Assembly (NCBI RefSeq): GCF_022846255.1
Contig: NZ_AP025682.1
Source: Escherichia coli
Lineage (GTDB): Bacteria; Pseudomonadota; Gammaproteobacteria; Enterobacterales; Enterobacteriaceae
DNA length: 64,000 nucleotides
Direction: 5' to 3' (one strand)
Shown here: positions 51,001 through 54,000 of the stretch, piece after piece
Position numbering within the stretch: the first letter of the stretch is position 1
How the letters are laid out: every line of letters begins with the position of its first letter
Made by a program: the position numbers

Positions 51001-54000
51001 TGATACCCCTTATTGTGGCCGCCGGGATATGTATTGCGTTGGGGCAAGTTCTTGGCGGTACAGATGTTGGTGAAAAAACAGGAACAATCCCGTGGATGCT
51101 TAATCAGATTGGCGGCTGGGGAATGGGGCTGATTGTGCCGCTGATTAGCGCGGCAATTGCCTATTCTATTGCCGATCGTCCCGGATTTGCCCCAGGCCTG
51201 ATTGTCGGCTTTCTCTGCGGGCAAATCCATACCGGATTTATTGGCGGTATGTTGGGTGGTTTCCTGGTGGGCTACACCATTTTGCTACTTAAACGCTATA
51301 TCCGCCTGCCGCAGTCGATGCAAGGACTCATGCCAATCATGGTGTTGCCGGTATTAAGCACCATTATCGGTGGGCTGTTAATGATGACGCTGATTGGTAA
51401 ACCCATCGCCTGGTTACAAGAAGCACTGATTCATTTGCTCGAGTCGATGCAGGGTGGATCGCGCTTCCTGATGGGGGCCATACTTGGCGCGATGGCAACC
51501 TTCGATTTCGGTGGTCCGGTCAACAAAACCATGTCGCTGTTTTCCGATGGCTTGCTGGTCAGTGGCGTCTACGGACCAGAAGCCGTGAAATTTGTCGGCT
51601 CAATCATCCCTCCGTTTGGCATCACACTTTCGTTCTTACTGACACGCCATAAATATACCCGTGCGGAGCGCGAGGCGCTGAAAGCCGCGTTTCCGATGGG
51701 GATCTGCATGATCACTGAAGGAGTCATTCCGATCGCCGCGCGTGACCTGCTGCGAGTAGTGGGATCTTGTGTGGTGGCATCGGCGGTCGCGGGCGGCTTA
51801 ATCATGGTGTGGGGCGTGGAGAGTCCGGTTCCGCATGGCGGCATGTTTGTTGTGCCTCTGTTCACCCATCCTCTGCTGTTTTGCCTGGCGCTGGGTATAG
51901 GCACGGTGATTTGTGGCGTGATGCTTTCACTCTGGAAGAAACCGGTAACGGAACGCGACGAAGAGTTTGACGAACTGAGCGATCAAAAGCTGAAAGATGA
52001 AGAGATCACTTTCACCCTCGAACAACCGGAGGCCCTATGTTTGCCGATATGAAAAGTATGGTGATGAAAGCCTGGCATGAACATTACGCCTTGCTGGCGA
52101 TCAACTGTATGAATCTGGAAAGTGCTCACGCAGCTATCCGCGTGGCGGAGAAGAATCGCGCTCCGATCATTCTCAATCTCTATCAGGGGCATCTGGCGCA
52201 TTTTCCTGCACCCGTCGCGGCGGCAGTGGTTAAAACGCTCGCGGAATCTGCCTCAGTACCGGTCACTCTGGCGCTTGATCATGGCAAAAATCCGGACTGT
52301 ATTCGTCAGGCGTTTCGTGCTGGTTTCAGCGGATTAATGATTGATGCTTCTGCTTTTCCCCTGGAGGAAAACGTGCGCCAGACCAGGGCGGTGGTGGAAC
52401 TCGCCGCCAGCGCGCAGCTCTGCGTGGAAGGCGAACTGGGCCATCTGGCAGATGCGCCGCGTTACGACCAGGCCGCCAATGCAGACCTGATGACACAACC
52501 CACTGATGTGGAAACGTTTATCGCGCAGACAGGCATTGATCTACTGGCCGTCTCGGTAGGCACGGCGCACGGCATGTACGCGCCTGGTGTTGTACCTGCT
52601 ATTGATTTTCAGCGTCTGGCGGAGATTTCGCGCTGCTCGAGCGTGCCTCTGGCATTACATGGCGGTAGCGGTACGCCGTTCGATCAGCTCCAGCTCTGTA
52701 CGACGCTGGGGGTAGCAAAAATCAACGTGGGGGCGGCCATTTTTGAACGGGGGAAATCCGCGCTCCTGCATACCCTCTGTCACGATATATCCATTGAACT
52801 GGTGGACGCGCTGAAAGCTATGGAACTGGCCTTCGAAGAAGCGATTACACCGTATTTACAGGCGAGCGGCTCTATCGGCAAAGCCTGATTCATTTTCTGT
52901 CATGGCCTTTATGCCAGTGCAATAACGCACCGGCAGGGCGGACTACACGCTGAAACTGGAGATTTAACATGTTAGTTTCGATGAAAGAATTACTGCAACC
53001 TACCCGCCAGCACGGCTTTGCCATTGGCGCATTTAATGTGGCGGATAACTGTTTCCTTCGCGCAGTCGTGGATGAAGCAGAAGCGACAAATACTCCGGCG
53101 ATTATTGCCATCCATCCCAGCGAACATGATTTTGTGGGCGATGCCTTTTTCGCTCACGTTCGCGAAATTACCCAGCGTAGTCCGATCCCGTTTGTACTGC
53201 ACCTCGATCATGGTGCCTCTGTAGAGCATGTTTTGCGTGCGATTCGCTGCGGATTTACCTCAGTAATGATCGACGGTTCGCTGCTGCCATATGAAGAAAA
53301 CGTGGCGCTGACCGCAGAAGTGGTTCGCCTCGCTCACGCGGTTGGAGTATCGGTTGAGGGTGAACTGGGAACCATCGGACAAACAGGAACGTCGGTAGAA
53401 GGTGGTGTTTCACAAGTGACCTACACAGATCCGGCGCAGGCCGCCGATTTTATTGCTCGTACAGGTGCCAACACACTGGCTGTGGCGATTGGTACAGCGC
53501 ATGGCATCTATCCAAAAGGGATGCAGCCGAAGCTGCAAATGGACATTTTGCGCGACATTGCCGGACGTATTGATATTCCGCTGGTGCTACACGGTGGTTC
53601 GGCAAACCCGGACGCGGAGATTGCTGAATCAGTTACGCTCGGCGTCGGCAAAATCAATATCTCCAGCGATATGAAATACGCCTATTTCCAGAAAGTGCGT
53701 GAAATTCTCGCTAAAGAGAGCTGGTGGGACCCGAACGTCATCTATCCGGATGCGATTAACGCGGCGCGGGAAGTCATTCGCCACAAAATGAAACTGTTCG
53801 GTTCGCTCGGTAAAGCATCACTGTACTAAGCCAGAAGGGCGGGGTGACCCGCCTTTTACGCAACAAGGAACGAGATATGCACTATCTGGGGTTGGATATT
53901 GGTGGGACCAAAATCGCCGCCGTCGTCATGGATGCGCATGGCTGGGAGATTCGCCGTTACCGCTGCCCGACGCAAAAGTCGACATATCAACAATTTGTCT

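What the first reader, a model, noticed from the sequence alone, without database searches (positions are those of the whole stretch)
53837..53857. Terminator-like hairpin inside the sugar cluster, between the second aldolase and the ROK kinase
A GC stem with loop and T-tract sits in the 47 bp gap inside what otherwise looks like one operon. It could split the cluster into two transcription units or act as a regulated attenuator.
Basis: seen in the sequence. Interest (0 to 1): 0.25.

Follow-up and report, generated by a model that had tools for sequence, protein, structure and literature searches.

The report
Conserved RNA hairpin inside frz operon
The hairpin is real and has been kept by selection just after the second aldolase gene of the E. 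coli frz sugar operon, but it is an ordinary kind of element: most likely a leaky transcription stop and mRNA-protecting stem-loop, not a boundary between two separately promoted units.

Summary
GGGCGGG-GTGA-CCCGCC-TTTT lies at 53837-53857, in the 47-nt gap between the second class II aldolase and the ROK kinase. The cluster is the ExPEC frz operon, between yicI and yicH. The RNA folds at -17.7 kcal/mol (z -4.7) and is the 4th most stable 24-nt local fold in the window.

In at least 9 enterobacterial lineages a hairpin sits at this spot:
- The 12-nt core stem is almost invariant; its only changes make G.U pairs.
- The outer stem covaries.
- The loop switches among hyperstable tetraloops (GNRA, UNCG, CUUG).
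- Wobble pairs fit the sense strand only.

The T-tract is short (U4 then ACGC) and is confined to the Escherichia/Citrobacter-like clade. Three outlying lineages have longer stems and no U-tract.

No promoter fits in the 19 nt before the ROK start, so ROK and the isomerase depend on read-through. FrzR has no RNA-binding CAT domain, and I found no alternative structure.

Best reading: a sense-strand RNA stem-loop that forms and protects a 3' end, acting as a leaky intrinsic terminator and exonuclease barrier, and lowers distal relative to proximal mRNA. It is a new member of a known kind, of low interest. No transcript data were available.

The parts
48527..55470 (+). The frz operon: frzR, PTS IIA, IIB and IIC, aldolase 1, aldolase 2, ROK kinase, and the cupin-fold D-lyxose/D-mannose-family isomerase. 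It lies between yicI and yicH.
   Evidence: ORFs, RefSeq annotation of the 99.6%-identical LF82 locus, Pfam domains, and the naming as frz genomic region GR27.
52969..53829 (+). Second class II ketose-bisphosphate aldolase (ald2). Its stop codon TAA is at 53827-53829.
   Evidence: and (PF01116, E 8.9e-90).
53834..53843 (+). 5' arm of the hairpin. The outer part GAAG is at 53834-53837 and the core GGCGGG at 53838-53843.
   Evidence: Folds. The core is invariant in 14 lineage representatives. The outer pairs covary.
53844..53847 (+). Tetraloop GUGA (GNRA class).
   Evidence: The loop is always 4 nt. Orthologues carry GCGA, GCAA, GAAA, UUCG, UACG, CUUG or AGUA.
53848..53853 (+). Core 3' arm, CCCGCC.
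   Evidence: The only changes seen are C->U, which give G.U pairs.
53854..53857 (+). U4 tract. It can also pair with GAAG in the released RNA. It is followed by ACGC.
   Evidence: The terminator scan does not list it. A U-rich tail is kept across the Escherichia/Citrobacter-like clade and is missing in three outlying lineages.
53865..53870 (+). Shine-Dalgarno sequence AAGGAA of the ROK gene. It is unpaired in the fold.
   Evidence: The stretch CGCAACAAGGAA is conserved after the hairpin even where the isomerase gene follows instead of ROK.
53877..54809 (+). ROK-family sugar kinase gene.
   Evidence: PF00480, E 2.9e-73.
54790..55470 (+). Cupin-fold D-lyxose/D-mannose-family isomerase gene. It overlaps the ROK gene by 20 nt.
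   Evidence: PF07385, E 4.4e-87.
55480..55505 (+). Hairpin at the operon end, followed by CCTTATTTTT. It lies between the convergent isomerase and yicH genes.
   Evidence: Listed by the terminator scan; sequence.

Best explanation
The element is a sense-strand RNA stem-loop kept by selection at the 3' end of the ald2 cistron of the frz operon.

In E. coli it most likely works as a leaky intrinsic terminator. The 6-bp GC core with a GNRA tetraloop forms as RNA polymerase transcribes the short U4 tract, and a fraction of polymerases are released. The same hairpin blocks 3'->5' exonucleases (PNPase, RNase II) on any transcript that ends or is cut downstream.

The net effect is more, and longer-lived, frzR-PTS-aldolase mRNA than ROK-isomerase mRNA. 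The distal genes are expressed only by read-through.

Shown here: the hairpin exists, is exceptionally stable, is conserved as a sense-strand RNA structure, and leaves no room for a downstream promoter. Inferred: partial termination, exonuclease protection, and the resulting difference in mRNA amounts.
For: Stability: -17.7 kcal/mol, z -4.66, and rank 4 of about 128,000 windows.

Conservation in at least 9 lineages of the yicI-frz-yicH locus:
- Core stem entropy is 0.09 with 10 of 12 positions invariant. Third codon positions score 0.85-1.04, the loop 1.48, and the flanks 1.2-1.4.
- 91% of cells are paired, against 44-60% when partners are slid.
- 14 cells carry double changes, and 0 of 500 shuffles reach the observed covariation score.
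- RNAalifold recovers the same helix.

Loops: 7 of 8 variants belong to the GNRA, UNCG or CUUG tetraloop classes. A within-E. coli variant changes GUGA to GCAA, two changes that stay GNRA.

Strand: the wobble pairs are G.U on the + strand only, and the + strand folds up to 10.8 kcal/mol better than the - strand.

The hairpin stays attached to ald2 even where ROK is missing and the isomerase gene follows.

Terminator anatomy in E. coli:
- The d'Aubenton-Carafa score is +15.4. Recalled controls give trpA t +36, rrnB T1 +29 and T7 Te +22.
- A U-rich tail (U4, UCUUUC or U5) is kept across the whole Escherichia/Citrobacter-like clade at about 20% DNA divergence, without consistent pairing to upstream bases.

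Read-through is required: the hairpin is 19 nt from the ATG, no promoter-like site is found, and the region is reported as 'transcribed in one operon' (PMC8777976).

Framework from Dar and Sorek 2018 (PMC6061677): stable stem-loops without U-tracts define exonuclease-resistant 3' ends, and U content can switch the mechanism during evolution.
Against: - No transcript data (RNA-seq, Term-seq, Northern) were available for any frz-carrying strain, so neither termination nor a protected 3' end is demonstrated.
- The U-tract is short. It fails the tool's criterion by one T, and in the released RNA it can be fully absorbed into the stem.
- Three lineages (Buttiauxella L005, the L030 group, the L024 group) keep the hairpin with no U-tract. 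Canonical termination therefore cannot be the function shared by all lineages.
- The stop codon is only 4 nt from the stem base. A ribosome at the stop would cover the 5' arm and could suppress termination in coupled transcription-translation (inference).
- The d-score formula and the control sequences were recalled from memory, and the score was computed with modern energy parameters.
Confidence: 0.55

Rival explanations
1. The hairpin is purely a protective or processing stem-loop. RNA polymerase does not terminate here in E. coli. The hairpin only stops 3'->5' exonucleases after downstream Rho-dependent termination or endonuclease cleavage, giving segmental mRNA stability as with the REP hairpins of malEFG.
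For: The hairpin is conserved whether or not a U-tract is present, and the lineages without U have longer, stronger stems of 10-11 bp at -18 to -23 kcal/mol. Dar and Sorek 2018 show this class is widespread in E. coli. U4 is below the scan threshold.
Against: A U-rich tail is retained across the whole Escherichia/Citrobacter-like clade, although the sequence around it has diverged. The classical terminator score is positive. This rival overlaps the best explanation rather than excluding it.
Confidence: 0.25
2. The hairpin is an attenuator sensitive to translation coupling, as in rph-pyrE. When a ribosome finishing ald2 closely follows RNA polymerase, it covers the 5' arm and polymerase reads through. 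When translation lags, for example under stress or starvation, the hairpin forms and ROK and the isomerase are switched down.
For: The stop codon lies 3-9 nt from the first paired base in all 14 lineage representatives. The hairpin and U4 have terminator anatomy. No alternative RNA structure is needed, which fits the absence of one. That the pyrE attenuator works this way is my own knowledge, not tested here.
Against: No evidence of regulation exists. Short stop-to-hairpin distances are common at ordinary terminators. The lineages without a U-tract cannot use this mechanism. No UTP-sensitive or other pause signal was identified.
Confidence: 0.12
3. The hairpin is an efficient terminator that splits the cluster into two transcription units, with ROK and the isomerase driven by their own promoter.
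For: It has a stable GC hairpin with a T run directly after a stop codon.
Against: Only 19 nt lie between the hairpin and the ROK ATG. There is no sigma-70-like site on the + strand from 49236 to 55100. A promoter inside ald2 would still need to read through the hairpin. There are only 4 U. The region is reported as 'transcribed in one operon'.
Confidence: 0.03
4. The hairpin is a terminator controlled by a PRD-type antiterminator protein (BglG/LicT style) that binds a RAT RNA overlapping the hairpin. FrzR would be that protein, since RefSeq labels it 'BglG family transcription antiterminator'.
For: The RefSeq product name of FrzR. FrzR has two PRD domains. E. coli bgl has an intra-operon terminator of this kind (my own knowledge).
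Against: FrzR has HTH_11 and Mga DNA-binding domains, PRD domains and a PTS_IIB domain, with no CAT RNA-binding domain. The 8 nt upstream of the core stem are not conserved (entropy 1.36). The sequence further upstream is translated coding sequence. No alternative fold was found.
Confidence: 0.02
5. The element acts at the DNA level as a palindromic operator, GGCGGG-N4-CCCGCC, bound by a dimeric regulator.
For: The core is conserved in sequence, not only in pairing, and the spacing is always 4 nt.
Against: The changes in the core are C->T on one arm only, which keeps G.U pairing in the sense RNA but breaks DNA symmetry. The outer pairs covary AU<->GC<->CG. The loops are stable RNA tetraloops. 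The + strand is favoured energetically. No second copy occurs in the window.
Confidence: 0.03

Closest known systems
Leaky intrinsic (Rho-independent) terminators inside operons, which set the ratio of proximal to distal gene expression
   Same: It has a GC-rich stem, a tetraloop and a U run immediately after a stop codon, inside a co-directional operon. The downstream genes depend on read-through. Natural E. coli terminators span a wide range of read-through (PMC9023263).
   Different: There are only 4 U followed by ACGC. The U-tract is absent in three orthologous lineages. Termination was not measured.
Protective 3' stem-loops without U-tracts at steady-state mRNA ends (Dar and Sorek 2018, PMC6061677), and intercistronic stabilisers such as REP in malE-malF
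   Same: It is a stable stem-loop with energies like those of terminators. It is conserved independently of uridine content. The lineage pattern matches the authors' suggestion that U content can switch the mechanism over evolution.
   Different: It is not a REP/BIME element: it is single-copy per genome. It lies within an operon rather than at a gene-cluster end. Exonuclease dependence was not tested.
The rph-pyrE intercistronic attenuator of E. coli (own knowledge)
   Same: It is a hairpin with a U run in an intercistronic gap, with the upstream gene's stop codon so close that a terminating ribosome would occlude the 5' arm.
   Different: No nucleotide-sensitive pausing region or any regulatory signal was identified, and regulation is not shown.
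BglG/LicT RAT-terminator antitermination
   Same: A PTS sugar operon with a PRD-containing regulator and an internal terminator-like hairpin.
   Different: The regulator lacks the CAT RNA-binding domain, and no RAT-like conserved element overlaps the hairpin.

Membership tests
Intrinsic (Rho-independent) terminator | GC-rich stem-loop that is stable in the nascent RNA | tested here: met
   A 6-bp GC core with a GNRA loop gives -12.6 kcal/mol alone and -17.7 kcal/mol when extended (z -4.66).
Intrinsic (Rho-independent) terminator | U-rich tract of 7-9 nt immediately 3' of the stem | tested here: inconclusive
   The tail is UUUUACGC, with 4 proximal U. It fails the scan's criterion of at least 5 T in 8. 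The d'Aubenton-Carafa score is nonetheless +15.4 (formula recalled from memory). A U-tract is absent in 3 lineages.
Intrinsic (Rho-independent) terminator | Factor-independent release of RNA polymerase at the site | not testable with these tools
   This needs in vitro transcription or Term-seq.
Protective 3' stem-loop / intercistronic mRNA stabiliser | Stable stem-loop on the sense RNA, maintained by selection independently of U content | tested here: met
   core entropy 0.09, covarying outer stem, G.U pairs on the + strand only, and the hairpin present in lineages without U.
Protective 3' stem-loop / intercistronic mRNA stabiliser | Steady-state 3' ends map just downstream of the stem and depend on PNPase or RNase II | not testable with these tools
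   No transcript data exist for frz strains in the searchable literature.
BglG/LicT-type RAT-terminator antitermination | Regulator with an N-terminal CAT (co-antiterminator) RNA-binding domain | tested here: not met
   FrzR has HTH_11, Mga, two PRD domains and PTS_IIB, with no CAT domain.
BglG/LicT-type RAT-terminator antitermination | Conserved RAT sequence overlapping the 5' half of the terminator | tested here: not met
   The 8 nt 5' of the core have entropy 1.36. The sequence upstream is coding. No alternative fold was found.
REP/BIME repeated extragenic palindromes | Many dispersed copies per genome | tested here: not met
   One place per genome in 1605 genomes, and a single match in the window with up to 3 mismatches allowed.
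Curated cis-regulatory RNA families (Rfam 15) | Match to a covariance model | tested here: not met
   No match with E-value up to 10 in 52800-54000 on either strand.

The most novel reading that the evidence does not exclude
The hairpin may be a conserved transcript-boundary module caught in an evolutionary switch of mechanism. It would be an ancestral U-less protective stem-loop that gained a U-tract in the Escherichia/Citrobacter clade, becoming an intercistronic attenuator sensitive to translation coupling. Such an attenuator would turn down the ROK kinase and isomerase relative to the PTS and aldolases when translation lags, which are the stress conditions under which frz is reported to matter.
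Probability: 0.12. Interest if true: 0.4.

Novelty: new member of a known kind. Interest (0 to 1): 0.18.

Why it matters
The frz operon is a fitness and virulence-associated locus of extraintestinal pathogenic E. coli. If a selected RNA element separates the PTS/aldolase part from the kinase/isomerase part, the two halves are probably expressed at different levels. That matters for interpreting frz mutants and for working out the still unknown substrate pathway.

The comparison across lineages (constant stem, variable U-tract) is also a tidy natural example of the proposed interchange between protective stem-loops and intrinsic terminators. Beyond that, the element is of a common, well-understood kind.

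Tried and rejected
- **Rouquet et al. 2009:** I could not read the paper that defined frz, by PMC id or by DOI. Co-transcription therefore rests on a review's one-line statement.
- **Literature searches for frz transcript maps** found nothing relevant.
- **Rfam scan:** no hit.
- **Repeat-family idea (REP-like):** rejected, because the element is single-copy.
- **RAT/antiterminator idea:** rejected on FrzR's domains and the unconserved upstream flank.
- **Palindromic-operator idea:** rejected on strand-specific G.U pairs and covariation.
- **The simple terminator scan is not discriminating here.** It found 23 sites against 18.9 +/- 5.6 in shuffles, and it missed this hairpin.
- **One recalled control was wrong.** My 'lambda tR2' sequence scored -54 and should be ignored.
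- **Automatic start-codon picking was faulty.** I redid it using the N-terminal motifs.

Full report
**Context.** The window region 48527-55470 is the frz operon of extraintestinal pathogenic E. coli, inserted between yicI (alpha-xylosidase) and yicH.
- A 3.6-kb query covers at least 80% in 1602 of 5426 complete E. coli genomes.
- The LF82 locus is annotated as a PRD regulator, PTS IIA/IIB/IIC, two class II aldolases, a ROK protein and a D-lyxose/D-mannose-family isomerase.
- Pfam agrees with that annotation.
- A 2026 genome paper names this region the frz operon of Rouquet et al. 2009.

- The ald2 stop TAA ends at 53829 and the ROK ATG is at 53877, so the gap is 47 nt.
- As RNA it forms 10 pairs (GAAGGGCGGG/CCCGCCUUUU) at -17.7 kcal/mol, z -4.66, with 0 of 200 shuffles as good.
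- The hairpin dominates the ensemble in 71-nt and 201-nt contexts and leaves the ROK Shine-Dalgarno sequence free.
- Folding every 24-nt window of the 64-kb sequence on both strands ranks it 4th of about 128,000.
- It is single-copy per genome, so it is not a REP-like repeat.
- The tool's terminator scan does not list it, because only 4 of the 8 bases after the stem are T. That scan is not discriminating in this region in any case (23 sites against 18.9 expected).

**Comparative evidence.** A genome scan with the ROK protein found complete frz operons in an Escherichia sp., two Citrobacter spp. and Buttiauxella massiliensis. A metagenome scan with a degenerate DNA pattern for the ald2 C-terminus found 58 more loci. 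Together they give 22 distinct intergenic sequences in at least 9 lineages, nearly all flanked by yicI and yicH orthologues. Across IIC-ald2 the lineages are 20-24% divergent in DNA.

Every lineage has a hairpin 3-9 nt after the ald2 stop:
- The core GGCGGG-N4-CCCGCC is invariant at 10 of 12 positions (entropy 0.09). Its only changes are C->U, which give G.U pairs.
- Third codon positions of the adjacent genes have entropy 0.85-1.04, the loop 1.48 and the flanks 1.2-1.4.
- The three outer pairs covary (AU, GC, CG). Overall 91% of cells pair, against 44-60% for slid partners. Double-change cells and the covariation score exceed all 500 shuffles.
- RNAalifold finds the same helix.
- The loop is always 4 nt. 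It reads GUGA, GCGA, GCAA, GAAA, UUCG, UACG, CUUG or AGUA, so seven of eight variants belong to the hyperstable GNRA, UNCG and CUUG classes.
- A divergent E. coli genome differs from the window by two loop bases and is still GNRA.
- Wobble pairs are G.U on the + strand only, and the + strand folds up to 10.8 kcal/mol better than the - strand.

These features indicate selection for a stable hairpin in the sense-strand RNA. They argue against a DNA palindrome and against a chance structure.

**The U-tract is less conserved than the hairpin.**
- Escherichia has UUUUAC/UUUUAU.
- Citrobacter and two related lineages have UCUUUC.
- Two lineages have U5.
- Buttiauxella, the L030 group and the L024 group have none (AGGCAACA, CAAUCGGC, UAUGAAUA). 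These three carry longer stems of 10-11 bp at -18 to -23 kcal/mol.

On a neighbour-joining tree the lineages with a U-tract form one clade and the U-less lineages sit outside it. A single gain or a few losses would explain the pattern.

The d'Aubenton-Carafa score gives E. coli +15.4, the U5 types +18 and +26, the UCUUUC types about 0 to +4, and the U-less types -10 to -45. Recalled strong terminators give +22 to +36. I recalled the formula from memory and used current energy parameters, so the score is a rough guide only.

**Where ROK is absent.** In three lineages, representing two independent losses on the tree, ROK is missing and the isomerase gene follows the same hairpin and the same CGCAACAAGGAA stretch. 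The element therefore belongs to the 3' end of ald2, not to ROK.

**What it is not.**
- *Not a boundary between two separately promoted units.* Only 19 nt separate it from the ROK start. No sigma-70-like site lies on the + strand between 49236 and 55100. A review reports the region as 'transcribed in one operon' (PMC8777976). I could not read the original paper.
- *Not a RAT/antiterminator device.* FrzR has HTH_11, Mga, two PRD domains and PTS_IIB but no CAT domain. The bases upstream of the stem are unconserved. No alternative fold appears.
- *Not a known Rfam family*.

**Most likely mechanism (inferred).** The shared, selected property is a stable 3'-proximal stem-loop on the ald2 mRNA. Dar and Sorek (PMC6061677) showed three things in E. 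coli. Such stem-loops, with or without U-tracts, define steady-state 3' ends. The U-less ones act as barriers to PNPase and RNase II. U content can convert one type into the other over evolution.

I therefore read the frz hairpin as an intra-operon element that forms and protects a 3' end. In the Escherichia/Citrobacter clade the retained U-run makes it a weak to moderate, necessarily leaky, intrinsic terminator. In all lineages it should stabilise the upstream frzR-PTS-aldolase segment relative to the ROK-isomerase segment.

The stop codon is 4 nt from the stem base, so a ribosome at the stop would cover the 5' arm. Termination could then depend on how closely translation follows transcription, as at rph-pyrE (own knowledge). 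This is the only form of 'regulated attenuator' that the evidence leaves open, and nothing positive supports it.

**Verdict.** The element is real and under selection, but it is a new member of a well-known kind. No transcript-level data were available, so the termination and stabilisation steps remain inference.

Noticed in passing
window 52889-52968 (ald1-ald2 gap): This 80-nt intercistronic gap is unusually conserved across the same lineages. 38 of 81 columns are invariant and mean entropy is 0.46, against 0.85-1.04 at neighbouring third codon positions. It includes an invariant CTGAAACTGGAGA just before the ald2 start and an imperfect hairpin around 52911-52934. On the - strand that hairpin folds at -16.4 kcal/mol, 7th in the window; on the + strand the gap is not significantly structured (z -1.3).
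   Followed up: partly
L018, L022, L038, L040, L042, L060; L041, L056, L066, L069; L037 (the ald2-isomerase junction): The ROK kinase gene is absent from three metagenomic lineages of the operon, representing two independent losses on the tree. The isomerase gene then directly follows the hairpin. In the window a short direct repeat CGCAAC flanks ROK (53859-53864 and 54774-54779), which could have mediated the deletion.
   Followed up: partly
window 52023-52052; L001 6524-6526: In the window strain the PTS IIC reading frame runs to 372 aa and overlaps the ald1 start by 16 nt. Strain LF82 has a stop at codon 364 (window ...TLEQPEALCLPI*, LF82 ...TLE*), giving the 363-aa protein annotated in RefSeq.
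   Followed up: partly
L006 and L007, about 5840-6000: In Chimaeribacter the closest ROK homologue (57% identity) is not in an frz operon. It sits behind a long non-coding region containing a repeated TGTTTA(A/C)TAAACAAAAT motif, which may be an operator.
   Followed up: no
window 55480-55505: A 9-bp hairpin (ACGCTAGCG...CGCTAGCGT) followed by CCTTATTTTT lies between the convergent isomerase and yicH genes. It is the likely 3' end of the operon and may act in both directions. It scores lower (-0.5) than the internal hairpin on the d'Aubenton-Carafa scale.
   Followed up: partly
window about 6191 (+), 17306 (+), 60228 (-): These three local hairpins are even more stable than the one studied (-17.9 to -18.6 kcal/mol in 24 nt). 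I did not examine their positions relative to genes.
   Followed up: no
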